Of a DNA stretch of 34,894 bases, positions 8,928-33,254 are shown in pieces. Both the position numbers and the translations under genes were made by a program. This stretch comes from an uncultured Chloroflexota bacterium (lineage in GTDB: Bacteria; Chloroflexota; Anaerolineae; Aggregatilineales; Phototrophicaceae): positions 1 to 34,894 of the forward strand of contig CAIRDJ010000059.1 in the NCBI GenBank assembly GCA_903877335.1, in the 5' to 3' direction. The notes beneath the pieces are model-generated. The model had not been told where the DNA came from. It did no database searches and saw only the letters and a program-made list of their open reading frames with translations. Position 1 is the first letter of the stretch; each line of letters begins with the position of its first letter.

Positions 8928-11549
8928 ATGAAGGTCACTTTTGTGAACAACCAGCAGTATAGCTCTAGCGCAATTTATCCCCCAAGCCACAGCATTTCAG
9001 GTTTAGCTTGTATCGCACACTTGGTAAAACTTCAGGGTCACACCACACCTAGCTTTCCACAAGTGGATGAGCGTGAACTTCAACAAGCCAGTGCCTTGCA
9101 AAAAGTGGCAAAGCAAATGGGGTTGGAATCACACATGATGCTCATTGCCAAAGACCATCTGGAAGAGTTGGCGGAAATAAATGCCCCCATCCTCATCCCC
9201 TTGCTTTCTGAGAGGTTGAATCAAGTTGAGTGGGCGATTCTTTGGAGCAAACGAGGTAATCTCTTCGAAGTATTAGACCCACAACTTGGGCGACGGTGGC
9301 TATCAACGGCGCAGTTGAATGAATTGATGCACCAAGCATCCATGACCATTTCTAGTCAAACATGGACGCAACTTGTTCAAAGTGAGTTGTTTCTGAAGGG
9401 AACCGCACGTTTGTTGCAGTCCCTACATTTGTCTGTTGAACACATCCAAGACTTGACCGAATCCTACCCTAGCCCAGAACAGATGCGGGTGTTGGATGCT
9501 GCCATCCGTTTTGTCGCGCAATTGACTCGTGAACAAGGTGGCATTTTCAAAGGGGAAGAGAGTTATCGCATGCTCAAATCCTTGTGTGATCGCTTTCTGG
9601 CACAACCGAGCGACCACCTTCTCCCCACCCGTTACTTCAGCGTGATTCCTCACCAAGAAAGCCAAGATTGGTTGTGGAGTGGGTATTGCGTGTTGGTCGT
9701 AGACGATTTTGCCGCCGTTGCACCCAGCGGTTCGGTGAACTGGCAACAGATTGTTGCCACGCTCAATCCCTTTCCACCACAGATTAGAAGTTATCTCACG
9801 AATCAAAGACTATTCCTTACCCTCACTTTTTCAGCTTTGCTATTGGGGGCACTAGGCACGTTCCTTCAAGTGATTCTATTGCGTGGGGTTTTGCTGGTTG
9901 TTGCACAAGTGGGGAACTTTGAACAACGATTACAAATTATTTTGGGCATTGCGTTGTTTTTCCTCATGCTGGGCTTGTTACGCTTAATGACCAACTTTGC
10001 CCTTGTGCGTTTAGGACATCAATTGGATGGGCGTTTGCGGACGACCATCTTGAACCTTTTGCCCACGCTACGTGACGATATTTTTCAGCATATTCCAATT
10101 GGAGACTTGGCAGAGCGCACCAGTAGCTTACGCGCGGTGCGCCATTTACCCTATTATTTTGGAGAGTCCGTCCAACTTCTCACTCAAATTGTGCTGACCG
10201 CGATCGGCTTGATCTGGTTGGATTGGGTAGTTGCTTTGTTGGCTATCGTGCGTGTTGCCATTTCGTTCAGCTTAATTGGCTTGGTGAATATTCTCAATTT
10301 GCCCAATAAGATTACTCGTCAAAATCTGGGATTGCTGGGACAGTTTCACCTAGACACCCTAATTTCTTTGGTGCCCATACGGTCGCATGTGGCAGAAGCC
10401 TCTACCACCCAGCAACATAACCACCTACTTGGACGGTGGTTAAAAGGTCGTTGGACGGAGCATCGCATTGAGATTGTGATTGAATGGGTGATAACCATAA
10501 ACTCCTTCTTGCTGGTGGCATTGATTATGTGGGTTTATTCGCTACGCACGACCACATCCAATTATTGGCTACTGGTGCTGTATTGGAGCATCTCATTGGA
10601 TGTTTTGGGCACACAACTGATGAACATCATCTTTCTTGCCCGTCGCGAGCGCAGCAAAGTCGAGCGATTCATGCAACTGGTTGATGATGCGAATCAGTCT
10701 GCGCCTTCCGCAACTACCTCCACCGTTCCCATCGACTGGCAATCGCAAGGTGTGAATATTCAACTGCGTGATTTAACTGTTCACCTTGAATCCCAAACAT
10801 TACTTCGTTCGATTAACTTAGACCTTGAAGCTGGCGAACATGTCGCGGTGGTGGGTTTGTCTGGCGCGGGTAAATCTACCCTAGCGAATTTGATGTTGGG
10901 GCTTTACACCCACTTTGATGGATTCTTCGTGGTTAATGGTCAACCTGTCACCCCTCAGCTGTTCGACACATTAAGGCAACATACCGTTTGGGTCAGTCCT
11001 AATGTCAAACTGTGGAACCGCACCTTGTTGGAAAATCTACAATATGGCGCGGCTAAACCATTCCGCTCTTTGGAAGAAACGCTCACCAAGTCGTCGTTGA
11101 ACACGCTCATCGAGCGGTTGCCCGAAGGGATGCAAACGATTTTGTTTGAGGATGGAAAGCGGGTTTCTGGGGGTGAACGACAAAAGATTCAGTTTGGGCG
11201 TGCTCTACAACGTGAAGATGTCCGCCTCGTGATTTTGGATGAACCCTTCTCTGAACTGAATCACCAACAACACCGTGAAATGCTGGAGCACAGCCGGGCA
11301 ACTTGGCGCGATGCTACCCTGTTATACATCACTCATGATCTGGAATTGTCCACCACTTTTAAGCGTGTATTGGTTGTCCATGATGGGCAGATTGCGGAGG
11401 ACGGGGTGCCACAGGACTTGTTAGATGAGCCTACCCTGTATGCCCGCATGCACGCCAGCGCAAAAAGTTGGCAAGAGGCAAAACAACAAATGGGGAATCC
11501 ACGCTATATTCGGCTTCAAGATGGAGTATTAAAAGAAGGTGTGCCATAG
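8928..11549 (+). CDS. ABC exporter (fused TMD-NBD) with an N-terminal peptidase-C39-like domain (bacteriocin/peptide-exporter family, COG2274-like)
   Basis: C-terminal NBD: Walker A 'GLSGAGKSTL', signature 'VSGGERQKIQ', Walker B 'ILDEPFSELN'. Central segment of about 6 TM helices. N-terminal roughly 150 aa resemble a C39 domain ('SGLACIAHL' near the Cys-motif position), but Trp replaces the expected His ('EWAILW'), so it is possibly a non-catalytic C39-like domain. Confidence 0.8.
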   Translation: MKVTFVNNQQYSSSAIYPPSHSISGLACIAHLVKLQGHTTPSFPQVDERELQQASALQKVAKQMGLESHMMLIAKDHLEELAEINAPILIPLLSERLNQVEWAILWSKRGNLFEVLDPQLGRRWLSTAQLNELMHQASMTISSQTWTQLVQSELFLKGTARLLQSLHLSVEHIQDLTESYPSPEQMRVLDAAIRFVAQLTREQGGIFKGEESYRMLKSLCDRFLAQPSDHLLPTRYFSVIPHQESQDWLWSGYCVLVVDDFAAVAPSGSVNWQQIVATLNPFPPQIRSYLTNQRLFLTLTFSALLLGALGTFLQVILLRGVLLVVAQVGNFEQRLQIILGIALFFLMLGLLRLMTNFALVRLGHQLDGRLRTTILNLLPTLRDDIFQHIPIGDLAERTSSLRAVRHLPYYFGESVQLLTQIVLTAIGLIWLDWVVALLAIVRVAISFSLIGLVNILNLPNKITRQNLGLLGQFHLDTLISLVPIRSHVAEASTTQQHNHLLGRWLKGRWTEHRIEIVIEWVITINSFLLVALIMWVYSLRTTTSNYWLLVLYWSISLDVLGTQLMNIIFLARRERSKVERFMQLVDDANQSAPSATTSTVPIDWQSQGVNIQLRDLTVHLESQTLLRSINLDLEAGEHVAVVGLSGAGKSTLANLMLGLYTHFDGFFVVNGQPVTPQLFDTLRQHTVWVSPNVKLWNRTLLENLQYGAAKPFRSLEETLTKSSLNTLIERLPEGMQTILFEDGKRVSGGERQKIQFGRALQREDVRLVILDEPFSELNHQQHREMLEHSRATWRDATLLYITHDLELSTTFKRVLVVHDGQIAEDGVPQDLLDEPTLYARMHASAKSWQEAKQQMGNPRYIRLQDGVLKEGVP

Positions 11550-11552
11550 ACC

Positions 11553-13826
11553 ATGAATCAACTCTTAGAAACAGTGCAAAATAGTCAAGTATTCAAGTTA
11601 ATTAGTGAATTTTGGGTCTCGACCAGCCAATCAAGCCCATTGATTGGGCTATTCGTGATTACCATGATCGGGTATTTTGGGGGGCGTTTACTCGCCAACC
11701 TTCTTTTTCTCATCATGCGTTCCAACGGAAGAACCGTCAACAAGCAACAACGAATGTTCTTGGGGTCCGTCTTCAATGTGTTTGGTTTGGCGGTTGCACT
11801 TGGTATTGGTATTCAACTGGTGCAATTTGACTTACGGGGGGAGACCTGGTTGTTCAACTTTTATGTTGTTGTCATGATCGGTAGCGTCCGTTGGTTTATG
11901 GTGGAATTGAGCGAAGAAATCAATCCGGCTATCTTGCGACGCTTAGGTTATGTGCTGTCAGTGCGCATTAGTTCTACGAGCTACTGGTTGGTAGCTTTCT
12001 TATATCTTGCGTATGTCTGGATTTCGTGGCCCATCCCCTGTGCTCCCCAGTGTGTGGGCGCGTCGCTGACCAACATCAACATGAGCGGCTTGGAATTACG
12101 CTTCGCAAACTTGACCAATGCCAACTTACGCAACTCAAGTTTTCAACGCGCTAATTTAACTGGAAGCAGTTTTGTTGGGGCGCAACTTGTCCGAGCAAAT
12201 TTTCGAGAGGCGAATTTGACGGGTGTGGATTTTTCTGGTGCCAACCTCACCTACGTTGATTTTGGCGGGGCAATTCTGGACAACACCCGCTTTGCAGGTG
12301 CCAATTTAACCGGCGCCAATTTAACCGCCGTTGACTTCAGCACGCTTGTTATTGATGGTGCCATTCTTGATGGAGCCAAATTGATTCAATCGAAAATGTC
12401 TGGCGTTGATTATCCTGGGGGTAGTCTAATAAGTGCTGATTTGACGAATGCCGACCTAAGCAATACCAATCTTCGCGGTACACAGTTTTCACGTGCAGAT
12501 TTATCTGGAGCGAATCTGTCGGGTTCCAAGTTGAACGGCTCGGTTTTCAACCTTGCTAACCTGGGTGATACGCACATGACCGATGCTGATTTAAGTGGCT
12601 CGCTGATGATTGGTGCAGATCTACTTTCATCAAATATGTCCAACAGTCGCCTGGTTGGCGTGAACTTCATTGGGGCGGATTTGTCGGGTGCGAATTTGTC
12701 CGGCACCAACCTCGCTTCTATTCTGCTCTTTAGAAGTGAGTTTGACGATAGCCTCGAAGTTACCGACGTAACACTGGCTTCGTTAAATGCCAGTGAATTG
12801 ACCGCCGTAATCAAGAATGCGGAGTATTCAGGAATCATCACGGATGAAAACGTGGTTTGGCCCACTGATAAAGAACGTCTCTTGAAAGATATTCTGGGGA
12901 TTCCATTTGTCTATGAAGTTGACCCTGAGTCCTTACTTGTTTCATTGCCCAAGCCCACCGAAGTGCGCGGAAATTTATCCATCTATGTCTCTGAAGACTT
13001 GAGTAGATTATATGATGTCGCGCTAGAAGGATTTTCAGAAAGTGGATTTCAAGGGACGATGAATCGGCATGCATTGGTGGAGGCAAACGAGTTTCTTGAC
13101 CTTTGCACCCAAACAGACCTTAATCTGGCAGTGTACACTTTGAATGTCCCATCAGAGGCGGATTTAGCAGTCTGCGAGTCCAACGGTGTGGCACTGTCAA
13201 GTTTTCCGATTGGCGCGCGGGTTGCTTTGGTGGCGGTGGTTAACCCCAAAAATACGGGGGCTACACAACTTTCCACAGGCAAGTTAGGCATAGCCCTCAC
13301 TGTAGAGCGGTGGAGCGATGTGGAAAGCTGGTTTCAAGCGGTCGATATTGAGCGTTATCTGCCCGTTCCAGAAACCCCCGGATTTGAGATTCTCTCGGAA
13401 TTGTTTACGGGAGGGCGCGATGACCTGCTGTTGGAAAGCAAAAATACATCGTTTGTCACGTCTAATGTTGATGTCATTTTGGGGGTAACATCCAATGAGA
13501 ATGCTATTGGGTTCCTAGACTATAACTACTACTTTGAGAATAAGACGTTGTTGACTGGACTGCAGTTGGACGGTGCGAATATTTCAGAGGAGTTGCCAAA
13601 AGCCTACCCCCTCGCTGAACCTATATTCATTTACTTCGATCAGAATCGATTAGTCAGTCATCCAGAATTGGTGTCCTACATCGGTTACTTCATCGCGAGA
13701 GTTCCTGCTGAACAAACCAACTTTGGTCAACTCACCTTAAACAACCATGTGCGCGTCTCCATTATTCAAGACTTGCATGACATGGCACAGCTTGAAACCG
13801 CAAACCCTACCAGTGAAGGATCATAG
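11553..13826 (+). CDS. Membrane-anchored pentapeptide-repeat protein with a C-terminal domain of unknown function
   Basis: ATG 3 nt after the upstream stop. About 4 N-terminal TM helices. About 45 consecutive pentapeptide repeats, A(D/N)L/F-x-x (e.g. 'ANLTNANLRNSSFQRANLTGSSFVGAQLVRANFREANLTGVDFSGANLTY'). A C-terminal segment of about 370 aa carries no motif I recognise. Confidence 0.8.
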   Translation: MNQLLETVQNSQVFKLISEFWVSTSQSSPLIGLFVITMIGYFGGRLLANLLFLIMRSNGRTVNKQQRMFLGSVFNVFGLAVALGIGIQLVQFDLRGETWLFNFYVVVMIGSVRWFMVELSEEINPAILRRLGYVLSVRISSTSYWLVAFLYLAYVWISWPIPCAPQCVGASLTNINMSGLELRFANLTNANLRNSSFQRANLTGSSFVGAQLVRANFREANLTGVDFSGANLTYVDFGGAILDNTRFAGANLTGANLTAVDFSTLVIDGAILDGAKLIQSKMSGVDYPGGSLISADLTNADLSNTNLRGTQFSRADLSGANLSGSKLNGSVFNLANLGDTHMTDADLSGSLMIGADLLSSNMSNSRLVGVNFIGADLSGANLSGTNLASILLFRSEFDDSLEVTDVTLASLNASELTAVIKNAEYSGIITDENVVWPTDKERLLKDILGIPFVYEVDPESLLVSLPKPTEVRGNLSIYVSEDLSRLYDVALEGFSESGFQGTMNRHALVEANEFLDLCTQTDLNLAVYTLNVPSEADLAVCESNGVALSSFPIGARVALVAVVNPKNTGATQLSTGKLGIALTVERWSDVESWFQAVDIERYLPVPETPGFEILSELFTGGRDDLLLESKNTSFVTSNVDVILGVTSNENAIGFLDYNYYFENKTLLTGLQLDGANISEELPKAYPLAEPIFIYFDQNRLVSHPELVSYIGYFIARVPAEQTNFGQLTLNNHVRVSIIQDLHDMAQLETANPTSEGS

Positions 13827-14861
13827 ATGACAACTGCTAACCCACTTCTAGCCGCGCTAAAGACTGCTACTTTGAACTTTAGGTTGATCGTAATTGTACT
13901 GCTCTTCCTCATTTTGGCAGGTTGCCGCTCTGTCGCGCCGGGGTGCCCTCCAGATTGTAAAGGCATCCGCCTTCGACAAGGCAACTTTTCGGGGATAAAT
14001 TTGTCTAATTCAGATTTGCGCGATGCTGAAATCCGCGGTTCTAATTTGGCAAACGCTAACTTTCGTGGTGCAGACCTCTCTGGTGCAAACCTGTCTGAGT
14101 CTTCATTAGTGGGTGCTGACTTCTCAAATGCCATCTTGGACGGCGCGATTTTTAGTGAGTCAAACTTGAGTGGCGCCATTTTAGATAACTCGCGCATGAT
14201 TGGAACGAACCTCAGTCGCGCTCAATTAATTGGGGTGGATTTTCGCACCGCTGAGCTTGCTGCCATAATCATGAACGAGTCCGTGTTGATCGGCGCGAAT
14301 CTTTCTGATCGCTCGCTTCAGGGTGTTCAGTTGATTGGGGCAGATTTACGCGGTGCCAGTCTCATCAATACGGATTTATCGGGAGCCACGTTAGGGATTA
14401 TCGCTGGGCGCGGAACCACTTTGCGAGGTGCGAACTTGTCAGGTGCGATTTTGGAGGGAGCCACGCTCAACGGGGTTGACCTTTCTGGGACCAACATGAG
14501 CGGCGTAAATTTGCGGGGGGCGGTCATTGGGCGACGCTCACGAGCCTTGGGCGCAAACCTTGAAGGAGCAAACTTAGAAAACGCTTTGTTGGAAGAAGTG
14601 AGTTTTGCGGGGGCGGATATGAAAGGAGTGAGTGTGGCTAACAGTTTGATCCAACGCATCCGTCTCAACGGCGCCCAACTGCACGATGCATCCTTTGAGG
14701 GTGCGTCGTTTGTGTTGACGCGCCAAGATGAGGCAGAGGAACGCCCAAGCTCCATCTTTGATTTGAATGGTGCCATCTACAATGAAAATACGGTGTTCCC
14801 AGCAGGCTACGAAGCACCGAGCAGTGCTCTGTTAGACGAACAGACTAGTAGCAACCCTTAA
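13827..14861 (+). CDS. Pentapeptide-repeat lipoprotein
   Basis: ATG immediately follows the upstream TAG (translational coupling). Signal peptide with lipobox 'ILAGC'. Nearly the whole mature protein is pentapeptide repeats ('SNLANANFRGADLSGANLSESSLVGADFSNAILDGAIF...'). Confidence 0.8.
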   Translation: MTTANPLLAALKTATLNFRLIVIVLLFLILAGCRSVAPGCPPDCKGIRLRQGNFSGINLSNSDLRDAEIRGSNLANANFRGADLSGANLSESSLVGADFSNAILDGAIFSESNLSGAILDNSRMIGTNLSRAQLIGVDFRTAELAAIIMNESVLIGANLSDRSLQGVQLIGADLRGASLINTDLSGATLGIIAGRGTTLRGANLSGAILEGATLNGVDLSGTNMSGVNLRGAVIGRRSRALGANLEGANLENALLEEVSFAGADMKGVSVANSLIQRIRLNGAQLHDASFEGASFVLTRQDEAEERPSSIFDLNGAIYNENTVFPAGYEAPSSALLDEQTSSNP

Positions 14862-14894
14862 CTTGAAGAACTTGCCCCACTGAATCGGGTTGGT

Positions 14895-14922
14895 GTAGAA
14901 GGGAAGTCGATTTCCCTTCTAC
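14895..14922. terminator. Perfect 11-bp inverted repeat (GTAGAAGGGAA-gtcgat-TTCCCTTCTAC) between convergent operons; putative bidirectional terminator
   Basis: Read directly from the sequence. Lies in the 76-bp gap between the + operon ending at 14861 and the - operon ending at 14938. No U-tract on either side. Confidence 0.45.
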
Positions 14923-14937
14923 GCCGCGGCAGTTTAC

Positions 14938-16380
14938 TTAGTTGCCGCCCGTGTTCTGCTGTTGCTGTTGTTGTTCTCCCGCGCCAAAGCCGCCCATCGC
15001 CCCAAACCCTTGTTGCTGTTGAGCGCCTGCGCCAAAGCCACCCATCGCCCCAGATCCTTGTTGCTGTTGTTGTTCTCCTGCGCCAAAGCCACCCATCGAC
15101 CCAAATCCTTGTTGCTGTTGTTCGCCTGCGCCAAAGCCGCCCATCGACCCAAATCCTTGTTGCTGTTGTTCGCCTGCGCCAAAGCCGCCCATCGACCCAA
15201 ATCCTTGTTGCTGTTGAGCACCTGCGCCAAAGCCACCTGTCGCACCAAATCCTTGTTGCTGTTGTTGAGCACCTGCACCGTCTAGTGGGGTAAATGCAGA
15301 GGGCGCAATAGGCGTTGCTAAGGAGAACGGCGCACTGTTGTCCAATGGCGAAGCTGAAAAATTAGTGGACGTGTCAGACACCAAATCATCTGGCAAAGGC
15401 AAAATCAAGGGGTTTTCACTGGGCAACAACATCACGCGGACATTTGGTGAAATTTTGTCAATATAGTAGTAGGTGAGTACCTCTGGGGACTCTTGCAACG
15501 CCTTGCCGATTTCACGCGCAGCGTTGGCTTGCGCAAGGGCGCGGATTTCTGTTGCGGTTGCATCCCCTCGGGCTAGGCGAATCTCACGCTCTGCTTGAAA
15601 CAATGCCGCTTCTTGTTGTTCTTTCGCCACTTGTTTGGCTTCAACTGATGCTGCATATTCTACCGAGAAAGTAATATCACGAATGAGGAATTGATCCAGC
15701 TCGAATCCTTTAAGCGTAAGCTCTTCGCGCAGCAGTCGTTCAAGCGTGGCTTCAAGTTCGGCACGGGAGGAACTATTGACCTCATTCACGGTGAATTTTG
15801 AAACCTCTGTGCGCACAAAGCCCCGCACTAACGGACGGATCAAATCATCGATGTAGCGATCTTGCCAATCCACATGCACTTGTGTCACTTGATTCACATC
15901 AATGCGAAAGATGGTGGAGGTGCTAAGGCGCACTTCTTGCCCGTCTTTGGTACGCGCTCGAATTGAATCATCCCCAATATCTTCCGCTGAACCCTCTCCA
16001 TTTGACATGGTGTAGGTTTGGTAGTAGATCGGGTAGAGTTGCACTTGCTCTAAAAATGGAATAATCACATGTAAACCGGCGCGAAGGGGCTGTTGGCGGA
16101 TACCATCAGGGGATAAAGCCGAAATCACCACGGCAACCGCAGCGGGTTGAATGAAGTTGACCGCGTATCCCAGTACGACAATTCCAAGCGTGAAGGTGAA
16201 CGGGATCAACACTTGCGCAGAAATAAGCCGCAGGAACGCAAGTACAAGCCCTTGTCGTGTCAAGGTGAGCACGAACAAAACTACGATGTAGATCACAAAT
16301 CCAACGACGGCAACATTGGATAGGATAGTAAGGAGCGTATCTATGTTAAATGCAATGAACGCCGATGAACTTGGCATCAT
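14938..16380 (-). CDS. SPFH/band-7 (flotillin/HflK-like) membrane protein with a C-terminal Gly/Gln-rich tandem-repeat tail
   Basis: N-terminal TM helix, SPFH-type core, and coiled-coil Ala/Glu-rich segment 'AKQVAKEQQEAALFQAEREIRLARGDATATEIRALAQANAAREIGKAL'. The tail is 7 repeats of a 16-aa unit. Start is probably the ATG-ATG at 16380/16377 ('MMPSSSAF...'); the upstream in-frame ATG at 16434 would overlap the NfeD-like gene. Confidence 0.75.
   Translation of the reverse strand: MMPSSSAFIAFNIDTLLTILSNVAVVGFVIYIVVLFVLTLTRQGLVLAFLRLISAQVLIPFTFTLGIVVLGYAVNFIQPAAVAVVISALSPDGIRQQPLRAGLHVIIPFLEQVQLYPIYYQTYTMSNGEGSAEDIGDDSIRARTKDGQEVRLSTSTIFRIDVNQVTQVHVDWQDRYIDDLIRPLVRGFVRTEVSKFTVNEVNSSSRAELEATLERLLREELTLKGFELDQFLIRDITFSVEYAASVEAKQVAKEQQEAALFQAEREIRLARGDATATEIRALAQANAAREIGKALQESPEVLTYYYIDKISPNVRVMLLPSENPLILPLPDDLVSDTSTNFSASPLDNSAPFSLATPIAPSAFTPLDGAGAQQQQQGFGATGGFGAGAQQQQGFGSMGGFGAGEQQQQGFGSMGGFGAGEQQQQGFGSMGGFGAGEQQQQQGSGAMGGFGAGAQQQQGFGAMGGFGAGEQQQQQQNTGGN
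14959..15272. repeat. About 6.5 copies of a 48-bp tandem repeat within the 3' end of the SPFH gene, encoding (GFG[AS]MGGFGAG[AE]QQQQ)n
   Basis: Near-identical 48-bp units visible in the DNA (e.g. 15121-15168 and 15169-15216 are essentially identical). Overlapping ORFs in the other frames and strand are artefacts of the repeat. Confidence 0.85.
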
Positions 16381-16405: not shown

Positions 16406-16852
16406 TTATCCGATAGCTTGCAACACTGCTTCAAATGGCGTTTGTTGATCTATGACGACCGTCACAACCCCATGCAACAGATTTTCGACCGCATAGCGGT
16501 GTTGATTTGTGAATTCGGTTTTCAGAATAACTTCACCGTTCAAATCATTTATTTCTAAAATGGCACTAGGAACGGATTCTATATTGCCATTCTTGTCCAA
16601 ATATTGAAATAGTGCAACGTCGCCGGCTTGAAGTTTACTTTTGTCGGCAGGCACGAAAATAGCCACAGTGCTGCGACTGTCCACGACCTGAGAATCCACA
16701 GAGTAGATTTTGACCGCCAGCGGAAAGGTGAAAAAACCAACAATCCATGCCAAAACCACCACAAGCAACAGCGTCATGACAATCAGGAGAAACACACGGT
16801 TCGTGCGTTGAAGCTCGATCAGAGAATAGGGAAGGTTATTTGAATCATTCAT
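16406..16852 (-). CDS. NfeD-like small membrane protein (SPFH-operon partner)
   Basis: 148 aa. N-terminal TM helices 'LLIVMTLLLVVVLAWIVGFFTF' followed by a beta-rich soluble domain. Lies immediately upstream of, and co-directional with, the SPFH gene, which is the canonical NfeD-stomatin/flotillin arrangement. Call rests on context and architecture only. Confidence 0.5.
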   Translation of the reverse strand: MNDSNNLPYSLIELQRTNRVFLLIVMTLLLVVVLAWIVGFFTFPLAVKIYSVDSQVVDSRSTVAIFVPADKSKLQAGDVALFQYLDKNGNIESVPSAILEINDLNGEVILKTEFTNQHRYAVENLLHGVVTVVIDQQTPFEAVLQAIG

Positions 16853-16854
16853 AA

Positions 16855-18954
16855 CTACTCGCTGTCAATCATAATCAATGTCTTGGAATACTTAATGAGT
16901 GCCTGTAGTACGCGCACCTTGTTTTCGGGGTCTAGCGCAACCAGATTCTCATCAATGATGGTGAGGTCTGGTTTTTGTAAAATGGCACGCGCAACGAAAA
17001 TGCGGTTGCGCTCCCCATGTGAAAGCCTCCATTCGGTTTCGCCCACCTTTTGATGAATGCCAAAGGGCATGTCATGCATTAACCCACCTAAACCCAATTC
17101 CTCACACAGTGCTTGCGCTTCTGCCAGATCGCCGGGGGTGGGGGTTCGGTTGCGCCCCATCAAAAGATTATATGCCAGCGACCCGTTGAGAATGTGATTT
17201 TGCGCGCTTGCCGAAACATACGCGATATTCTTGCGCCAAATGCGCGGGTTCAAGGTGTATTGATCGTTGCCCGCATAGAGTAACACACCAGAGGTGGGTT
17301 GTCTAAGGTGACACAAGACCGTGGCGAGGGTGGATTTCCCGCTCCCGGTTTCTCCTTGTAACCATAGTGTTTCACCGCTGTGGATGGTTAAGTTGACATT
17401 GTTAAGAATGGGTTCAAGGTTTTCGGTAAATCGAAAGCGGATGTTGCGCAGTTCTAAAATGATGTTGCTTCGGTTTACCTTATCGGTCATCTGGGGGTGT
17501 TGTTCGTTGTTCTGTGAAATTGCCTTGAGTTGTTGAATTTGATGCCAGGCATGGGTGCTTTTAACTAACTCTGGAATAGAAAAAGCTAAGATTTGCAACT
17601 GCATAAATGCGAACAACCACAGCGACAGACGCAAGCTAATGCCTAAGGGGGAGATGACGGCGGGATAAAGCGCGAGGGGGGCAATCCCCAATAATGCTAC
17701 CAAAACCCCGCCATAGGGAATGAGCGTCCAAACGAGGGTGGCAAGTCGGTCATAGCGAGTTGCCTGTTGCAGATATTGAGCAAGCACAGCATCCTCACGT
17801 TTGAACCAGTTTGTCTCCTGCACGAGGCGTGTGGTGTGCCCGCGAAGGTTTTCCACAAATTGATGAATGAGGTGTTTGTGTTGGGTGTGGAAGGTAGGGT
17901 ATTGTTGCACGAGATACCGAATCATCCCCACACAAATTGCTAACCAGCTCGCCAGAATCAGTGCGCTGAATAAATCCCCAATGATGAGCAGTACAAGCGT
18001 CACCAAGATGAGAAATACGGCAGAAGCGATCACCCAGGCACTGCGTTGAAAACCGGATTCCTCTAACGTTTCGGTTTCCATCACATCGTGAAAATATTGT
18101 GTGCTGTGCTGGAAAACTTCGCCAATGGGCAACTGAAGGGTATCTTGGAAAAGTTGTTGTTTGATGTTCAAGCCGAGCTTGAGCGCGTAGTAGTGTTCTA
18201 GCCAGGTGAGCATCAGGGCAATCGGAATGCGCGAAACCCACACCAAAAGCCCTAACACTAGCCAAAACGGGTTGATCCGTCCGCTGACACTGGCTTGCCC
18301 CATGAGCGCGATCGCTGTGAAGAATAGAATGTAGTGCCCACTCCGCAAGCCAATTTGTAGCCCCAACCAGCGAAGAATTTGCTGGCGCGTATTGCTGAGC
18401 GCGTTGGTAATTTGTGTGTTGACTAACCAGATGCCTTGAATGTGGTGTTGAGCGAGATGTAGATCGAGGTAGGCTTCACGCACTGCCTGGCGACGAAACA
18501 TCGGAAGGCCCACATCTTGCAAAAGCTGCGTGGTAATTTCAAAGTAGGCACGCTGCAACGGTTCTCTGAAGACATTTTGCAAGCGTTTCAAGGACAATCG
18601 TGTTCGCCTTCCGTCGTTCCCCAAAAGTGTGGCATGACGGGCACCACACCGCAGCACCACCACATACCCGTGCAAGGATTCAGTTTGTGTGGTGGAAGGA
18701 ACGGACAAGATTGCGGGGGAGTTGGCGCGGAGTAGTTCCATCAGTTGCGCGTATGACACGGCAACTTCCGTCAAACCTAATTGGAGCTTATCGCTAGTCT
18801 GCAATAACCATTCTTCAAAGGGGAGTGTCTCTTGGGTTGCGTCATACGATTCGACAAGGTGCGGTTCAGCGGATTGCCGAAGCAAAACCAACGCTTGATG
18901 CAGGTTGGAAGCGTTCCAGATCAGGGTATTTTGAGCAAGTTGATTCAATCGCAT
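16855..18954 (-). CDS. ABC exporter (fused TMD-NBD) with an N-terminal C39-like domain lacking the catalytic Cys
   Basis: NBD: Walker A 'GETGSGKSTL', signature 'LSHGERNRIF', Walker B 'IIDENLVALD'. N-terminal roughly 170 aa show C39-like spacing with a His-motif-like 'LHGYVVVL' but no N-terminal Cys motif. The stop is 3 nt before the start of the NfeD-like gene. Confidence 0.8.
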   Translation of the reverse strand: MRLNQLAQNTLIWNASNLHQALVLLRQSAEPHLVESYDATQETLPFEEWLLQTSDKLQLGLTEVAVSYAQLMELLRANSPAILSVPSTTQTESLHGYVVVLRCGARHATLLGNDGRRTRLSLKRLQNVFREPLQRAYFEITTQLLQDVGLPMFRRQAVREAYLDLHLAQHHIQGIWLVNTQITNALSNTRQQILRWLGLQIGLRSGHYILFFTAIALMGQASVSGRINPFWLVLGLLVWVSRIPIALMLTWLEHYYALKLGLNIKQQLFQDTLQLPIGEVFQHSTQYFHDVMETETLEESGFQRSAWVIASAVFLILVTLVLLIIGDLFSALILASWLAICVGMIRYLVQQYPTFHTQHKHLIHQFVENLRGHTTRLVQETNWFKREDAVLAQYLQQATRYDRLATLVWTLIPYGGVLVALLGIAPLALYPAVISPLGISLRLSLWLFAFMQLQILAFSIPELVKSTHAWHQIQQLKAISQNNEQHPQMTDKVNRSNIILELRNIRFRFTENLEPILNNVNLTIHSGETLWLQGETGSGKSTLATVLCHLRQPTSGVLLYAGNDQYTLNPRIWRKNIAYVSASAQNHILNGSLAYNLLMGRNRTPTPGDLAEAQALCEELGLGGLMHDMPFGIHQKVGETEWRLSHGERNRIFVARAILQKPDLTIIDENLVALDPENKVRVLQALIKYSKTLIMIDSE

Positions 18955-24912: not shown

Positions 24913-26966
24913 CACCGACAACATCAAGTACCACCATTCCTGTTTTAGAGCTGGAAGATGTGCACATTGCCTATCAATCTGTGGGGAAATGGCATGACGT
25001 TGTTCACGGGGTATCGTTTGCCATACAACGTGGGCAAACGGTTGGGTTAGTGGGAGAATCCGGTTGTGGTAAAACTTCAACTGCCTATGCGGTGATGAAT
25101 TATCTCGGCAAGAACGGAAAGCAAAGCGGAGGGTCTATCCGTTTTAATGGGCGTGACATGCAGTCTTTTTCTCGCCAAGAGATACGCGATATTCGCGGCA
25201 AAAAGATGAGCATGGTCTATCAAAACCCTGCTTCGTCCCTCAATCCTGCCCTGCGAATTGGGCAACAAATGATCGAGGTTCTAGCTCGCCATGAGCATCT
25301 GTCTTCGCTGCAAGCCACCGAACGCGCCCTAGAGATGTTTCGTAAGGTGCGTTTACGTGACCCAAAAGCAATCATGCAACGCTATCCCTATCAGTTAAGT
25401 GGGGGGCAACAACAGCGTGTGGTGATCTCGATGGCGTTGGTAACAAACCCTGATCTGTTGATTATGGATGAGCCAACAACGGGTTTGGATGTCACCACAG
25501 AATCTGCCGTGTTGCGCTTGATAGCGGAACTCAAGCAAGAGTTTGATACCGCCATACTTTACATCAGTCATGATTTGCGTGTGGTGGCAAAAGTGTGTGA
25601 TTGGGTGGGAGTGATGTATGCTGGGCAGTTGGTTGAATGGGGGACAGCAGAGGCTGTTTTCAATCGCCCTCAAAATCCGTATACCGCCGACTTACTGGCT
25701 TGCACTCCTAGCTTGACGCAACATTATCAATCTAGCCGCTTGCGTACCATAGAAGGACGTGTCCCTGCACCCCATGCCCGTCAAGTGGGTTGTATCTATG
25801 CTTCGCGTTGCCGTTTCGCCCAGGCGGATTGTACCGAGACAACACCAATGATCCGCGAGTTATCATCTATGCCTTCTCATCAAGTGCGCTGTTGGCATTC
25901 CGAATCCATCCGAGAGCAACTTTCCCCAACTTTCCCCATCCAAGCCCCCCGCCCATCCGATAAAGCACTTTCTGCCGCGCCATCCAACGCAACTTTCTTA
26001 GAGGTTAAGGGGTTGAAGCAATACTATCGTGCCTCCTCCTCTATCGTGGATCGCGTGTTAGGTGGTGAGGCTCATTCGTTTAGGGCGGTGGATGATCTTT
26101 CGCTGGTTATTCAACAGGGGGAAGTGTTTGCAGTCGTCGGGGAAAGTGGGTCCGGAAAAACCACAACAGGGCGTGCAATCGTAGGCTTATTGAAACCAAC
26201 AGATGGCACCATCACTCTTCATGAAAAGTCGTTGTCCCCTCTTGTACAACACCGTTCTGCCAGGGAACGCCAAGCGATTCAAATGGTGTTCCAAAATCCT
26301 GAGTCCACCCTAAACCCTAACCACACCATCGGGCACATCTTGCATAGAACCTTGCTTCGTTTTGGTATCACTGGTCGGGGCGAGCGTCAGGAGAAAGTTG
26401 AACGCTTGTTGGAGTCTGTGCGGTTAGACCCAAGTTACGCTTATCGTTATCCAGGCCAGTTGAGCGGAGGCGAAAAACAGCGGGTGGCGATCGCACGTGC
26501 TTTCGCGGGTGATCCTCAGTTGGTTGTTTGTGATGAGGCGGTTTCGGCGTTGGATGTGTCAGTTCAAGCCACCATCTTGAATCTATTGATTGACTTAAAA
26601 GAGCAAACCCAGTGCTCTTACTTGTTCATCTCCCATGATCTCAGCGTTGTCCATTACATCTCTGACCACATTGCGGTGATGTATCACGGGCAAGTAATGG
26701 AAAGTGGCACAGTCGATCAAGTATTTGAAGCACCCCATCACCCGTATACCGCTATGCTGTTGAGTGCGATTGATTCTACCTATCATGCAGGTTCTTCCAC
26801 TGCGGATGCTTCACAAATGGAATCACAAGCCGACCAAGAGGGGTGTCCATTTCATGCTCGCTGCCCGCGCAAAATTAAAGACCTGTGTGAGCAAGTCGCT
26901 CCGCCCATTCAGTCCCCCACAGAGGGGCACCTCATCCGTTGCCATATCCCACTAAACGAACTGTAA
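24909..26966 (+). CDS. Fused tandem ATP-binding protein (DppD-DppF type) of the peptide/nickel ABC importer
   Basis: Two complete NBDs. The first has 'GESGCGKTS' / 'LSGGQQQRV' / 'LIMDEPTTGLD'; the second has 'GESGSGKTT' / 'LSGGEKQRV' / 'VVCDEAVSALD'. Each is followed by a Cys-containing oligopeptide-transporter C-terminal segment. The ATG overlaps the DppC stop (ATGA). Confidence 0.85.
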   Translation: MTPTTSSTTIPVLELEDVHIAYQSVGKWHDVVHGVSFAIQRGQTVGLVGESGCGKTSTAYAVMNYLGKNGKQSGGSIRFNGRDMQSFSRQEIRDIRGKKMSMVYQNPASSLNPALRIGQQMIEVLARHEHLSSLQATERALEMFRKVRLRDPKAIMQRYPYQLSGGQQQRVVISMALVTNPDLLIMDEPTTGLDVTTESAVLRLIAELKQEFDTAILYISHDLRVVAKVCDWVGVMYAGQLVEWGTAEAVFNRPQNPYTADLLACTPSLTQHYQSSRLRTIEGRVPAPHARQVGCIYASRCRFAQADCTETTPMIRELSSMPSHQVRCWHSESIREQLSPTFPIQAPRPSDKALSAAPSNATFLEVKGLKQYYRASSSIVDRVLGGEAHSFRAVDDLSLVIQQGEVFAVVGESGSGKTTTGRAIVGLLKPTDGTITLHEKSLSPLVQHRSARERQAIQMVFQNPESTLNPNHTIGHILHRTLLRFGITGRGERQEKVERLLESVRLDPSYAYRYPGQLSGGEKQRVAIARAFAGDPQLVVCDEAVSALDVSVQATILNLLIDLKEQTQCSYLFISHDLSVVHYISDHIAVMYHGQVMESGTVDQVFEAPHHPYTAMLLSAIDSTYHAGSSTADASQMESQADQEGCPFHARCPRKIKDLCEQVAPPIQSPTEGHLIRCHIPLNEL

Positions 26967-27031
26967 GACACTTTTGGGGAGCGCATAACGTGAGACATTC
27001 GCTCTCTTTGTATCACAATCATAGTAACTTA

Positions 27032-28201
27032 ATGAGTGGATTCGTAATCTTTAATATGAAGAGTATCTTGTATCAAATTCAACGTCGGACTGCCTTTGAT
27101 GAAGGGCATACCTTGTTCATGCGCGCTGAAGCAAGTATGAGTAATTTTGAACTGGATAGTGGGCAGATCGTAGAACCTGATATATTCTTGAAGGAGGGGG
27201 GATGGAGTTTATATGGGGCGCAAGATGGTCGCTTCATGTTGGTACAGTTGCCTCTGTCAGAGGATATCACACAAGTTCCTTTCATGACCCCTCACCAAAA
27301 CCAGCATGCCCAGCAATTATTAACTATTCCTTTTGAGGTTGCGCATACCCTCGTAGAGAACATTCCCGCACCTCAAAAGATCATCTTCATTCACATGATG
27401 GGGCGGACTGGCTCTACGCTGTTGAATAAGATTTTGAGCAATGTGGATGGGGTATGTAGTTTTTCTGAACCGGCTACCTTCCGCTTGGTGAGCAAATTGT
27501 GTGGGGGAGGGGTTGTTGACTCGGTGGGATGTCTCAACATTTTACGAACAGCGTTGCGGTTGCAATTCGGCGCACAGAATTATCAAGGCGACTTTCACAC
27601 GCTGGGGATTAAGTTGCGACATCGTGCAATGGATGATCTATCAATTTACCATTCGGCTTTTCCCACTGCTAAATACATTTTCATGTATCGTGAAGCGGTT
27701 GGTTGGATGCGCTCCTTTTATCGGTTGCTGATGGCATTTGGTGTGGGTAGGGACTTGGAGATAGCTGATGGTGCGCTTCCAGCAGATGCACGCCCCACAC
27801 AACAACTCCAAATCATCTGGAAACAAATCAGTGATAAACCGACCGATTACTTCAGTACGCATCCCGATTACGGCTATCTCGAGGAACTCTTGGCGGTGGT
27901 GTGGTCAAACTTGATGAACCAATACCTGCGGGGTGTGGAGCAGGGAATCCCATTATTAGCTGTGAATTTCAAAGATTTTACGCAAGATCGGCACGCAACC
28001 TTACAAGAGATTTTTTCGTTCGTCGGGCTAGACGCACAGCAAATTGACAGAGTGATGCAAGTCTATGAGGCAGACTCACAAGCTGGCACGGAAGTGGGAA
28101 GAGAGGGCTACAAGCACCCTATAACTGATGCCCAAGTCAAAAGATTCCTTGCTTACTTGAGCCTTCAACAGGGTTGCAATATGCCGGACTACACCTTATA
28201 G
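27032..28201 (+). CDS. Sulfotransferase-family-like protein, paralog A (tentative)
   Basis: P-loop-like 5'-PSB-type motif 'MMGRTGSTLLNKIL' (compare sulfotransferase 'RSGSTLL') and a downstream 'MYREAVGWMRSF' segment resembling the 3'-PB region. Start chosen at 27032 ('MSGFVIFNMKSILYQIQRR') by parallel with paralog B ('MNGFGFPNMMSILYQIQRR'); the upstream extension overlapping the ABC ATPase gene is rejected. Confidence 0.45.
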   Translation: MSGFVIFNMKSILYQIQRRTAFDEGHTLFMRAEASMSNFELDSGQIVEPDIFLKEGGWSLYGAQDGRFMLVQLPLSEDITQVPFMTPHQNQHAQQLLTIPFEVAHTLVENIPAPQKIIFIHMMGRTGSTLLNKILSNVDGVCSFSEPATFRLVSKLCGGGVVDSVGCLNILRTALRLQFGAQNYQGDFHTLGIKLRHRAMDDLSIYHSAFPTAKYIFMYREAVGWMRSFYRLLMAFGVGRDLEIADGALPADARPTQQLQIIWKQISDKPTDYFSTHPDYGYLEELLAVVWSNLMNQYLRGVEQGIPLLAVNFKDFTQDRHATLQEIFSFVGLDAQQIDRVMQVYEADSQAGTEVGREGYKHPITDAQVKRFLAYLSLQQGCNMPDYTL

Positions 28202-28401
28202 CATTTGGGTATCATAAGGGATGGCTACTGTTGCTGGATGAGAGGCTACGATTTTTGAGATATAGGGCACGGAGTGGAGATCGTGGTTGGTAATGTGTCT
28301 GCACGCGCCGTCGAAGTGTCAGAAACCTTAGGGAAGCGGTTAACTCTAGCGAATAGGACTTGTTTTATTACAATCACATTTATGACAGGATAAGTAATTA
28401 G

Positions 28402-32591: not shown

Positions 32592-32862
32592 GGGATTTGT
32601 TCACTCAATCAATGAGGTTGGCGGTTATATTGACCAGTAGCTGACATAGATCCAGTCTATGAGCCAAGCACATGTTTTTAACATAGGGTCACTCCTGAAA
32701 AATGATCTAATAAAACTGACACAATAGCAATGATGATCTGGCGTTTTTTTAGGCTCACTCTAAATCATGCCGTCCTACAAGCACTGCAACAAATACTGTT
32801 ACAAATCAGCTGGATGGGTTACACTCGCCTTGAGGTTGTTTTTGTCGGGGAATTTTCGCAAG

Positions 32863-33243: not shown

Positions 33244-33254
33244 AAGAGGACACT

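What the first reader, a model, noticed from the sequence alone, without database searches (positions are those of the whole stretch)
14959..15272. Near-perfect 48-bp tandem repeat array encoding a (GFGxMGGFGAGxQQQQ)7 tail on the SPFH protein
Two of the seven units are identical at the nucleotide level, and the rest differ by one to three substitutions. That implies recent expansion and a locus prone to slipped-strand or recombinational copy-number change. The encoded tail is extremely low-complexity (Gly/Phe/Gln, FG-like and prion-like), unusual for a flotillin/HflK-type protein. It could mediate phase-separation-like clustering or act as a length-variable spacer.
Basis: seen in the sequence. 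Interest (0 to 1): 0.55.

Follow-up and report, generated by a model that had tools for sequence, protein, structure and literature searches.

The report
Length-variable Gly/Phe/Gln tail on bacterial prohibitin
A real, in-frame 48-base tandem repeat gives a prohibitin-like membrane-scaffold protein of an uncultured Chloroflexota bacterium a floppy Gly/Phe/Gln-rich tail, whose length differs by whole repeat units between almost identical genomes and which no other sampled family member has; what the tail does has not been tested.

Summary
The repeat is real. It lies on the minus strand at the 3' end of a 480-aa gene (14938-16380). That gene encodes a prohibitin-type SPFH protein, not HflK/C or flotillin.

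Units 2 and 3 are identical. Other unit pairs differ at 2-10 of 48 positions, not 1-3.

Eleven protein variants share an almost invariant core but carry 5, 6 or 7 units. In four related loci the 13-kb flanks are over 99% identical to the window. All length changes are multiples of 3. A sister lineage (about 80% identical) has a different 16-aa unit (GFNGGFGATGTQQQGQ) in 3-6 copies, and the differences between its internal units are all synonymous. So the peptide appears to be under selection while copy number drifts.

No other member has such a tail, among 118 further clusters at 90% identity and 149 representatives at 50% identity.

AlphaFold gives the tail pLDDT below 50. The positive-inside rule places it outside the cytoplasm. 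By analogy with solved SPFH cages, the tails would cluster at the cap of the dome.

The function is inferred, not shown: a multivalent, weakly cohesive brush or spacer. The tail fails several criteria for nucleoporin FG domains. All copy numbers come from metagenome assemblies, most or all probably short-read. This is a new variant of a known kind, of moderate interest.

The parts
14938..16380 (-). Gene for a 480-aa prohibitin-type SPFH protein. The start is the ATG at 16380, with GAGG 9-12 nt upstream. The TTG at 16434 would overlap the upstream gene.
   Evidence: ORF list. Pfam Band_7 E 1.4e-31. The exact 480-aa product is on record. Start region read. Best PDB sequence match is prohibitin-2, 8rrh_B, E 4.8e-13.
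16153..16380 (-). N-terminal membrane anchor, residues 1-76: two hydrophobic helices joined by a short Arg-containing loop.
   Evidence: AF2 helices 5-43, 45-52 and 55-73. Hydropathy and charge counts over 87 homologs: N-terminus K+R 0.44 / D+E 1.95; loop K+R 2.89 / D+E 0.43.
15667..16152 (-). SPFH (Band 7) domain, residues 77-238.
   Evidence: Pfam. AF2 pLDDT above 90. Foldseek top hits are the human prohibitin complex, HflK/C, erlin and stomatin.
15490..15663 (-). Long alpha-helix, residues 240-297. It corresponds to the coiled-coil wall of SPFH cages.
   Evidence: AF2 helix H240-297. It aligns to the prohibitin-2 coiled-coil region.
15385..15489 (-). Conserved C-terminal segment, residues 298-332 (SPEVLTYYYIDKISPNVRVMLLPSENPLILPLPDD). 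It is the counterpart of the cap-forming CT region of prohibitin.
   Evidence: Near-invariant columns T303, Y304, Y306, P312, P320, P324, L327, P328 and L329 in 87 homologs. It aligns to prohibitin-2 residues 243-280. AF2 gives low confidence for it in the monomer.
15280..15390 (-). Ser/Thr/Pro/Ala-rich linker, residues 331-367. It ends in 'SAFTP', which is conserved in all three tail-bearing lineages. It is the counterpart of the 25-50-aa T/P/S/A-rich tails that end most other homologs (up to about 90 aa in a few).
15253..15279 (-). Leading half unit GAGAQQQQQ, residues 368-376.
15205..15252 (-). Unit 1, GFGATGGFGAGAQQQQ. It is the fixed edge unit, identical in all 11 variants.
15157..15204 (-). 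Unit 2, GFGSMGGFGAGEQQQQ. Identical to unit 3 at all 48 nt.
15109..15156 (-). Unit 3, GFGSMGGFGAGEQQQQ. The 5-unit allele (L005) lacks exactly one unit of this type, unit 2 or 3 (the two are identical).
15058..15108 (-). Unit 4, GFGSMGGFGAGEQQQQQ (51 nt, one extra CAA).
15010..15057 (-). Unit 5, GSGAMGGFGAGAQQQQ (the first Phe is replaced by Ser).
14956..15009 (-). Unit 6, GFGAMGGFGAGEQQQQQQ. It is the edge unit: identical in the five DNA sequences compared and in 10 of the 11 protein variants (P0124 has Ser for Ala at position 4).
14938..14955 (-). C-terminal NTGGN plus the TAA stop codon.
15092..15216 (-). Two overlapping copies of a 77-nt exact direct repeat (15216-15140 and 15168-15092, offset 48). 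This is the likely substrate for slippage or unequal crossing-over, and the likely cause of assembly ambiguity.
14862..14937 (.). Intergenic gap between the convergent genes, containing an 11-bp-stem hairpin. Probably a transcription stop for both genes; there is no U tract.
   Evidence: Fold -27.9 kcal/mol, z -3.5. The terminator scan did not flag it.
16406..16852 (-). Upstream 148-aa protein with a single transmembrane helix and a beta-rich remainder. It is a conserved operon partner of unknown family.
   Evidence: The same gene order occurs in L143 and L145, with 22-28% identity and 16 invariant columns. No Pfam hit. The AF2 model is unusable.
16855..18954 (-). ABCB/PCAT1-like ABC exporter half-transporter, 699 aa. 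It is the first gene of the conserved trio.
   Evidence: Pfam ABC_tran. PDB matches over the membrane and ATP-binding domains. Neighbourhood conserved.

Best explanation
Shown: the array is a genuine coding minisatellite of 48-bp units, always in frame. It sits at the 3' end of a prohibitin-type SPFH gene of an uncultured Chloroflexota bacterium, labelled an Anaerolineae MAG and sister to a Phototrophicaceae MAG. It encodes a 113-aa, nearly uncharged tail (35% Gly, 28% Gln, 10% Phe) that is predicted to be disordered. A 37-aa Ser/Thr/Pro linker joins the tail to the conserved C-terminal segment.

Inferred from the allele structures: copy number changes by replication slippage or unequal recombination between near-identical units. 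There is a 77-nt exact repeat, the edge units are fixed, and internal units are gained, lost or chimeric. Selection appears to keep the G-F-G...QQQ pattern and the 16-residue period.

Inferred from homology: solved SPFH proteins assemble into domes of about 22-26 subunits, with the C-termini forming the cap. The tails would therefore cluster at the dome apex, roughly 20 or more chains and about 240 FG motifs within a few nanometres.

Inferred from the positive-inside rule: the dome and its tails lie on the extracytoplasmic side of the membrane.

Most likely role: a multivalent, weakly self-associating brush or plug whose reach and mass are set by the unit number. It would either fill or shield the cap opening, or span the gap between the dome and the cell envelope above a co-encoded ABC exporter.
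For: - Repeat and reading frame.
- Prohibitin-type identity.
- Copy-number alleles: 5, 6 or 7 units on cores with 0-2 aa differences and flanks 99.2-99.6% identical, from at least six independent samples (the window's plus five others). One allele was recovered in three JGI samples, two of which gave one and the same contig, and another on six contigs.
- Chimeric unit: the extra unit in L002/L003 combines the 5' half of an S-type unit with the 3' half of unit 1.
- Selection: in the window lineage, the 4 variable sites in Gly codons are all third-position and synonymous. Non-synonymous changes are confined to positions 4, 5 and 12, plus one Phe-to-Ser. In the sister lineage L006, all 5 variable sites among four internal units are synonymous (P about 7e-4 under a uniform mutation model).
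- Period: all length differences are multiples of 3. The 16-aa period is kept between the two lineages whose units are fully read, despite internal indels.
- Disorder: pLDDT is 44-52 across the tail.
- Topology: and PMC2636767 for prohibitin-like SPFH4.
- Cap geometry: C-terminal regions form the cap, are the most variable part, and leave a centre that is not sealed and may be filled by unstructured C-terminal sequence (PMC12624060).
- Attachment point: another family member carries a folded DUF192 domain at the same C-terminal position.
- Precedent: GGFGGQ repeat tails on the ring-forming Hfq of Acinetobacter are functional and dose-dependent (PMC11617691).
Against: - There are no experimental data on this protein.
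- The tail is confined to one small clade, so it is dispensable for the family's core function.
- Oligomer state, cap geometry and the side of the cap from which the tails emerge are extrapolated from proteins only 15-24% identical in the Foldseek alignments.
- Topology rests only on charge statistics.
- This lineage has Glu in about half the units, and the motif is GFG rather than GLFG. In Nup98-type domains both changes abolish phase separation at 10 uM (PMC9918544).
- Copy numbers come from assemblies whose reads I could not inspect. A 77-nt exact repeat can mislead de Bruijn assemblers, and one related contig ends inside the array.
- Homogenisation by gene conversion could inflate the apparent signal of purifying selection.
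Confidence: 0.6

Rival explanations
1. Neutral runaway low-complexity expansion. The array is a tolerated by-product of slippage at a structurally unconstrained C-terminus and has no function of its own.
For: - Every other homolog ends in a short, poorly conserved T/P/S/A-rich tail, so this end of the protein tolerates almost anything.
- The tail is restricted to a few closely related lineages.
- Copy number and the A/E and A/S positions vary freely.
Against: - The reading frame is preserved in all 15 tail-bearing sequences.
- Gly and Phe positions change only synonymously, with one exception.
- The sister lineage has 5 of 5 synonymous differences between units.
- A G/F/Q repeat with the same 16-aa period persists across lineages whose cores have diverged by about 20%.
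Confidence: 0.22
2. The array is real, but the 5/6/7-unit differences are largely assembly artefacts: collapse or expansion of a 300-bp tandem repeat in metagenome assemblies.
For: - The 77-nt exact repeat at offset 48 exceeds common k-mer sizes.
- The Phototrophicaceae MAG contig ends inside the array.
- All sequences come from metagenome assemblies.
Against: - The same allele was recovered repeatedly: the 496-aa form in three JGI samples (two of them on one and the same contig), and the 480-aa form on six contigs.
- At least seven distinct array structures exist, each explicable by a one- or two-step unit gain, loss or crossover.
- 77 nt is shorter than typical 150-nt reads, so reads can bridge it.
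- The sister lineage independently shows 3, 5 and 6 units.
Confidence: 0.15
3. Envelope tether. The extracytoplasmic tail binds the cell wall, sheath or S-layer, and its unit number matches the distance from membrane to wall. Alternatively, it is a variable surface-exposed target under diversifying pressure, for example from phage.
For: - The tail is predicted to be extracytoplasmic.
- It follows a T/P/S-rich linker typical of extracytoplasmic spacers.
- In-frame length variation of this kind is typical of bacterial surface proteins (established knowledge).
- Neighbouring genes encode membrane or lipoprotein-like pentapeptide-repeat proteins.
Against: - No known wall-binding motif was detected; Pfam finds only Band_7.
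- No sorting signal is present at the C-terminus.
- Gly/Phe/Gln repeats are not a recognised peptidoglycan-binding module.
- Nothing here tests binding.
Confidence: 0.12
4. Cytoplasmic condensate scaffold. The SPFH domain and tail face the cytoplasm, and the prion-like tail drives phase-separated clustering of membrane microdomains.
For: - The tail is Q-rich, uncharged, FG-containing and predicted disordered.
- Some bacterial SPFH proteins, such as flotillins, are cytoplasmic (established knowledge).
Against: - Charge distribution over 87 homologs puts the inter-helix loop inside and the C-terminal part outside.
- The closest relatives, prohibitin and HflK/C, face the intermembrane space or periplasm (PMC11991916; PMC2636767).
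- The tail fails the length, motif and charge criteria of cohesive FG domains.
Confidence: 0.08

Closest known systems
Prohibitin PHB1/PHB2 and prokaryotic prohibitin-like SPFH4 proteins
   Same: - Band 7/SPFH domain, N-terminal membrane anchor, long coiled-coil helix and a conserved C-terminal cap segment.
- Best sequence and fold matches in the PDB.
- The predicted orientation away from the cytoplasm matches prohibitin facing the intermembrane space.
   Different: - Two N-terminal hydrophobic helices instead of one.
- No paralogous partner gene is adjacent, so the assembly is presumably homo-oligomeric.
- It is encoded with an ABC exporter and a 148-aa protein; no FtsH or m-AAA protease gene was found among the window's predicted proteins (Pfam scans).
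- It carries a 150-aa linker plus G/F/Q repeat tail that no solved or sampled relative has.
HflK/HflC
   Same: An SPFH cage-forming family on the periplasmic side of the bacterial inner membrane, with a similar overall fold.
   Different: - The HflC model scores 19.8 bits against a cut-off of 134.4.
- There is no hflK-hflC gene pair and no FtsH context.
- The low-complexity Gly-rich region of HflK is N-terminal (recalled, not tested).
Acinetobacter Hfq C-terminal GGFGGQ repeats (PMC11617691)
   Same: - A bacterial, disordered C-terminal tail of tandem Gly-Gly-Phe-Gly...Gln units on a ring-forming oligomer.
- The repeat number matters for function in that system.
   Different: - A different core protein (an Sm-fold RNA chaperone), located in the cytoplasm.
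- A 6-aa unit.
- An acidic tip follows the repeats, whereas this tail ends NTGGN.
- The Hfq locus was 100% conserved in sequence among the eight clinical A. baumannii isolates sequenced, whereas here the number varies.
Cohesive FG domains of Nup98-type nucleoporins (PMC9918544)
   Same: - Phe-Gly motifs embedded in uncharged Gly/Gln/Asn/Thr-rich spacers.
- High FG density: one per about 10 residues here, against about 12 in Nup98.
- Many chains grafted around a ring.
   Different: - 113 aa and 11 FG motifs per chain, against 500-700 aa and about 50.
- The motif is GFG, not GLFG. GAFG variants did not phase separate at 10 uM.
- Glu occurs in about half the units of this lineage, and one Asp per spacer abolished phase separation.
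- No transport-receptor system is known. There is no homology.
In-frame coding minisatellites (VNTRs) of bacterial surface proteins
   Same: - Head-to-tail units whose length is a multiple of 3.
- Diverged edge units and homogenised interior units.
- Copy-number alleles between near-identical strains.
   Different: - The host is an inner-membrane scaffold protein, not a classical adhesin.
- There is no on/off switching, because the frame is never lost.

Membership tests
SPFH / Band 7 superfamily | Band_7 (PF01145) domain scoring above the Pfam gathering threshold | tested here: met
   110.4 bits against a cut-off of 23.6, E 1.4e-31.
SPFH / Band 7 superfamily | SPFH fold followed by a long coiled-coil helix | tested here: met
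   The AF2 model has pLDDT above 90 over residues 20-240 and a helix at 240-297. Foldseek probability is 1.00 to prohibitin, HflK/C, erlin, stomatin and flotillin chains.
SPFH / Band 7 superfamily | Assembly into a large membrane-attached ring or dome | not testable with these tools
   Only monomer prediction is available. This is inferred from solved relatives (PMC12624060).
Prohibitin-type (SPFH4-like) subfamily | Closest sequence relatives among characterised SPFH proteins are prohibitins | tested here: met
   The top seven PDB sequence hits are all prohibitin-1 or -2, with a best E of 4.8e-13. Sources name the homologs 'prohibitin family protein'.
Prohibitin-type (SPFH4-like) subfamily | N-terminal anchor with the SPFH domain facing away from the cytoplasm | tested here: inconclusive
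   Positive-inside statistics over 87 homologs favour this orientation. No dedicated topology predictor or experiment was available.
HflK/HflC | Match to the curated HflC or HflK equivalog models | tested here: not met
   TIGR01932 scores 19.8 bits against a cut-off of 134.4, and there is no HflK hit.
HflK/HflC | Adjacent hflK-hflC paralog pair | tested here: not met
   There is a single SPFH gene. Its neighbours are a 148-aa protein, an ABC exporter and pentapeptide-repeat genes.
Flotillin | Flotillin-type architecture: longer protein with an extended coiled-coil and flotillin domain | tested here: not met
   No flotillin-specific Pfam or NCBIfam hit. Flotillin chains rank below prohibitin, HflK/C, erlin and stomatin, with a target-normalised TM-score (TMt) of 0.33-0.37.
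SPFH-NfeD operon | Adjacent NfeD-family partner gene | tested here: inconclusive
   The upstream 148-aa membrane protein has no NfeD hit, or any other significant hit, even at E up to 1. Its AF2 model is too poor for a fold comparison.
Coding minisatellite / VNTR | Head-to-tail units whose length is a multiple of three, in frame with the ORF | tested here: met
   Units are 48 nt (one of 51, one of 54). The ORF is continuous in all alleles.
Coding minisatellite / VNTR | Copy-number differences between otherwise near-identical genomes | tested here: met
   5, 6 or 7 units on flanks over 99% identical. The caveat is that the evidence is assembly-based.
Phase-variable contingency locus | Repeat changes shift the reading frame or the promoter spacing to switch expression on and off | tested here: not met
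   All observed length changes are multiples of 3, and the array lies at the 3' end of the gene.
Nup98-type cohesive FG domain (functional class) | [quoted passage not shown] | tested here: met
   11 FG motifs in 113 aa, one per 10.3 residues.
Nup98-type cohesive FG domain (functional class) | Extreme depletion of charged residues, especially acidic ones | tested here: inconclusive
   This lineage has 0 Lys/Arg but 4 Glu. The sister lineage has only 1 Asp.
Nup98-type cohesive FG domain (functional class) | Length of 500-700 residues with about 50 predominantly GLFG motifs | tested here: not met
   113 residues, with GFG or GGFG motifs and no Leu. Criteria are from PMC9918544.
Nup98-type cohesive FG domain (functional class) | Phase separation or hydrogel formation | not testable with these tools
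   This requires purified protein.
Prion-like Q/N-rich domain | Q/N-rich composition scored as prion-like by a dedicated predictor, with amyloid formation | not tested
   Q+N is 30% of the tail. No PLAAC-type tool was available.

The most novel reading that the evidence does not exclude
The roughly 20 or more tails grafted around the cap of a bacterial prohibitin-like dome form an FG-nucleoporin-like cohesive meshwork. This meshwork plugs or gates the central cap opening above a co-encoded ABC exporter. It would be a prokaryotic, convergently evolved 'selective phase', whose tightness is tuned in nature by repeat copy number.
Probability: 0.06. Interest if true: 0.85.

Novelty: new variant of a known kind. 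Interest (0 to 1): 0.4.

Why it matters
Recent cryo-EM work on SPFH cages leaves a question open: is the central opening of the cap a channel, or is it filled by unstructured C-terminal sequence (PMC12624060)? Here nature has attached a long, compositionally extreme tail of variable length to exactly that position in a prohibitin homolog.

If the tail is functional, it offers a natural allelic series of 3 to 7 units. That series could be used to test what C-terminal extensions do at the cap of SPFH domes, and whether short FG/Q repeats grafted at high local density behave cohesively outside eukaryotes.

If the tail is only tolerated, it is still a clean example of a coding minisatellite evolving in concert within lineages of an uncultured bacterium. 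It is also a warning that such arrays break or distort metagenome assemblies.

Tried and rejected
1. A protein search with the tail alone found 7306 word-sharing candidates, but none scored E <= 0.001. Even proteins carrying the identical tail failed to score, probably because of HMMER's correction for biased composition. So tails on unrelated proteins could not be surveyed this way.

2. A degenerate DNA unit pattern run against one genome per GTDB species gave 16 loci, none from Chloroflexota and none in an SPFH gene. Only the three loci with more than one match were inspected. The Vibrio and Photobacterium hits are off-frame matches inside RnfC Ala/Lys repeats. A Nannocystis hit is an unrelated PPQQQGFGAPQQQ repeat. 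The species seems not to be among the representative genomes.

It returned only unrelated GFGA-type low complexity.

4. The AF2 model of the 148-aa operon partner reached a mean pLDDT of 53.7. That is too poor for a fold search.

5. Rfam found no match in 14500-15700 on either strand.

6. An on/off phase-variation switch is rejected because all indels are multiples of 3.

7. The plus-strand ORF 14962-15285 and the second minus-frame ORF 14934-15278 are rejected as genes. They are stop-free mirror frames of the repeat.

8. A C-terminal sorting signal is rejected. The protein ends NTGGN with no hydrophobic segment.

9. No other segment of 30 aa or more in the window, in any frame, has G+Q+F of 60% or more.
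Full report
**Observation**

Tandem Repeats Finder reports an array at 14962-15265 with period 48, 6.3 copies, 88% matches and score 427. Weaker higher-order periods of 96 and 99 are also reported. The array lies inside a minus-strand ORF ending at 14938. Translating that strand gives the following:

- a half unit, GAGAQQQQQ (15279-15253);
- six full units: GFGATGGFGAGAQQQQ, GFGSMGGFGAGEQQQQ twice, GFGSMGGFGAGEQQQQQ, GSGAMGGFGAGAQQQQ and GFGAMGGFGAGEQQQQQQ;
- a terminal NTGGN followed by the stop codon.

Units 2 and 3 are identical at all 48 nt. Other unit pairs differ at 2-10 positions. The longest exact direct repeat is 77 nt at offset 48. A degenerate unit pattern matches four times in the window, against none in 100 shuffles.

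The unit count (7) and the stated divergence (1-3 substitutions) do not.

**The gene**

The likely start is the ATG at 16380. GAGG lies 9-12 nt upstream, and the ATG is 25 nt after the stop of the preceding gene. The resulting 480-aa product is on record as a called gene.

- Pfam finds a Band_7/SPFH domain, E 1.4e-31.
- The best solved relatives by sequence are all prohibitin-1 or -2, best E 4.8e-13.
- The curated HflC model scores far below its cut-off, 19.8 bits against 134.4.
- An AlphaFold2 model built from 87 homologs is confident (pLDDT above 90) for helices 5-43, 45-52 and 55-73, for the SPFH domain 74-238 and for most of helix 240-297. It is below 50 for almost all of residues 306-480.
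- Foldseek puts the human prohibitin complex first, followed by HflK/C, erlin, stomatin and flotillin.

So the host is a prohibitin-type SPFH protein, not a flotillin or HflK.

A 100%-identical neighbouring protein is labelled 'Anaerolineae bacterium' (a MAG). The sister lineage is a 'Phototrophicaceae bacterium' of the Chloroflexota.

**Copy-number variation**

The 90%-identity cluster containing this protein has 11 members of 463, 464, 480, 495 or 496 aa. Their 367-residue cores differ from the window's by 0-2 residues, but they carry 5, 6 or 7 units. I count at least seven distinct array structures.

I retrieved DNA for four related loci. Their 13-kb flanks are 99.2-99.6% identical to the window, and the gene core differs at 2-4 of 1152 nt.

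- The half unit, unit 1, the last unit and the NTGGN end are identical in all of them.
- The 5-unit allele lacks exactly one of the two identical units.
- The 7-unit alleles contain an extra unit whose 5' half is S-type and whose 3' half equals that of unit 1.

That pattern is what unequal crossing-over or slippage would produce.

A sister lineage, 80% identical by BLASTP, has a different 16-aa unit, GFNGGFGATGTQQQGQ, in 3, 5 or 6 copies. A third lineage shows GFGNNGGFGTQQQ before its contig ends.

Caveat: every sequence comes from a metagenome assembly, most or all probably short-read. The 77-nt exact repeat can confuse assemblers, and one MAG contig stops inside the array. Against a pure artefact, the same alleles recur in independent samples and on multiple contigs.

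**Selection**

All length differences are multiples of three. In the window lineage, the four variable sites in Gly codons are all third-position and synonymous. Amino-acid changes are confined to unit positions 4 (A/S), 5 (T/M) and 12 (A/E), plus one Phe-to-Ser.

In the sister lineage, the four internal units encode the same peptide but differ at five sites, all synonymous. Only 24% of single-nucleotide changes would be synonymous, giving P of about 7e-4 under a uniform model.

The 16-residue period is retained between the two lineages with fully read units, even though the spacing between the two Phe residues within a unit differs. I read this as purifying selection on a G-F-G...QQQ pattern combined with concerted evolution of the units. 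Gene conversion complicates the statistics.

**Distribution**

Among the 120 best 90%-identity clusters, only the two closest carry the tail. The others end 25-50 aa (a few up to about 90) after the conserved NPLILPLP motif, in T/P/S/A-rich sequence.

In an exhaustive HMMER search of 1.84 billion representatives at 50% identity, 93 clusters score E <= 1e-30. None of the 149 other listed representatives has a G/F/Q tail. One carries a DUF192 domain at the same position.

The tail is therefore a lineage-specific addition to a position that tolerates extra modules. Nothing else in the window has this composition. My literature searches found no description of such a tail on an SPFH protein.

**Where the tail would sit (inferred)**

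Across 87 homologs, the segment before helix 1 is acidic (K+R 0.44, D+E 1.95). The loop between the two hydrophobic helices is basic (K+R 2.89, D+E 0.43). By the positive-inside rule the loop is cytoplasmic, so the SPFH domain and tail are extracytoplasmic. This matches prohibitin, which faces the intermembrane space (PMC11991916). It also matches what was proposed for prokaryotic prohibitin-like SPFH4 proteins (PMC2636767).

Solved SPFH complexes are domes of about 22-26 subunits. Their C-terminal regions form the cap, which is the most variable part of the structure. [quoted passage not shown]

The conserved segment 298-332 of this protein aligns with that cap-forming region of prohibitin-2. 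The 37-aa linker and 113-aa tail follow it. On this analogy, 20 or more tails, carrying about 240 FG motifs, would be grafted around the apex. Whether they point into the dome or out of it cannot be said.

**How it most likely works**

The tail is 35% Gly, 28% Gln and 10% Phe. It has no Lys or Arg and four Glu. That composition fits a collapsed, weakly self-associating disordered chain (established knowledge of Gly/Gln-rich sequences).

The closest functional analogues are two:

- Acinetobacter Hfq has GGFGGQ repeat tails, and reducing the repeat number impairs function (PMC11617691).
- Nup98-type cohesive FG domains resemble the tail in composition. Against published Nup98 rules, however, the tail is too short, lacks the Leu of GLFG and contains acidic residues, each of which weakens or abolishes phase separation in that system (PMC9918544).

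High grafting density at a cap could compensate for these shortfalls, but this is conjecture. My best reading is a selected brush, plug or spacer at the cap, with length tuned by unit number.

The rivals are a neutral expansion, an envelope tether, or a cytoplasmic condensate scaffold.

**Context**

The SPFH gene is the last of a tightly packed trio. The other two are an ABCB/PCAT1-like exporter (16855-18954) and a 148-aa single-helix protein (16406-16852). The same order recurs at two distant homolog loci.

No FtsH or NfeD gene was detected. By analogy with HflK/C-FtsH and QmcA-YbbJ, the dome may corral the exporter, but this is untested.

The rest of the window encodes ordinary transporters and enzymes.

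**Verdict**

The repeat is real and its variability is well supported, subject to read-level confirmation. It is a new variant of a known kind: a prohibitin-like SPFH protein with a lineage-specific, length-polymorphic G/F/Q tail. The function is unknown, and the nucleoporin-like reading is attractive but weakly supported. Interest is moderate.

Noticed in passing
window 16406-18954 (-); L143 2141-6143; L145 2288-6155: A conserved gene trio: an ABC exporter of about 700 aa, a membrane protein of about 150 aa, and the prohibitin-like SPFH gene. It recurs at loci whose SPFH proteins are only about 54% identical. The small proteins are 22-28% identical, with 16 invariant columns.
   Followed up: partly
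window 16406-16852 (-): The 148-aa protein (one transmembrane helix, then a beta-rich part) has only 4 clusters among 5.8 billion proteins. It has no significant Pfam or NCBIfam hit, and its AF2 model reaches only pLDDT 54. It is an orphan operon partner that could be an NfeD-like or adaptor-like component.
   Followed up: partly
window 18205-18954 (-): The first 250 or so residues of the ABC exporter, ahead of the region that aligns to PCAT1, MsbA or Sav1866, have no Pfam hit even at E up to 1. This is an uncharacterised N-terminal accessory region.
   Followed up: partly
window 8928-14861 (+); L144 7015-8967: A convergent operon: an 873-aa ABC_tran protein, a 757-aa membrane pentapeptide-repeat protein, and a 344-aa pentapeptide-repeat protein with a lipobox-like LILAGC near its N-terminus. 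A pentapeptide-repeat protein with a PBP_like_2 domain also lies close downstream of (one gene after) the SPFH gene in a Caldilineaceae genome.
   Followed up: no
window 14862-14937: A stable hairpin with an 11-bp stem (-27.9 kcal/mol, z -3.5) in the 76-nt gap between the convergent SPFH and pentapeptide genes. It has no U tract and was not flagged by the terminator scan.
   Followed up: partly
L148 8478-9641 (GCA_049318945.1, JBMOEO010000105.1): The Phototrophicaceae MAG contig ends inside the G/F/Q repeat (...QQGFGNNGGFGTQQQGF). The array breaks assemblies, and a third lineage appears to have yet another unit.
   Followed up: partly
P0144 (475 aa), residues 364-463: A family member at 46% identity carries a DUF192 domain (E 6e-25) after the SPFH core, at the position occupied by the repeat tail here.
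   Followed up: partly
window 15280-15300 (-); P0002, P0131: The pentapeptide SAFTP, immediately before the repeats, is conserved in all three tail-bearing lineages, although the surrounding linker diverges. Its significance is unknown.
   Followed up: no
window 32730-34055 (+): The BacA/UppP ORF is 441 aa, but the BacA domain covers only residues 183-435. Either there is a long N-terminal extension or the start is called too far upstream.
   Followed up: no
window 14962-15285 (+) and 14934-15278 (-): Two further stop-free ORFs of 107 and 114 aa run through the array in other frames. They are by-products of the repeat composition, not genes.
   Followed up: yes
L014 2329-3222 (-) (Nannocystis MAG): An unrelated protein with in-frame Pro/Gln-rich repeats containing QQQGFGAPQQQ turned up in the genome-wide pattern scan. 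Part of that locus is masked with N.
   Followed up: no
window 26939-29604 (+): Two adjacent genes of 420 and 400 aa with weak Sulfotransfer_3 matches.
   Followed up: no
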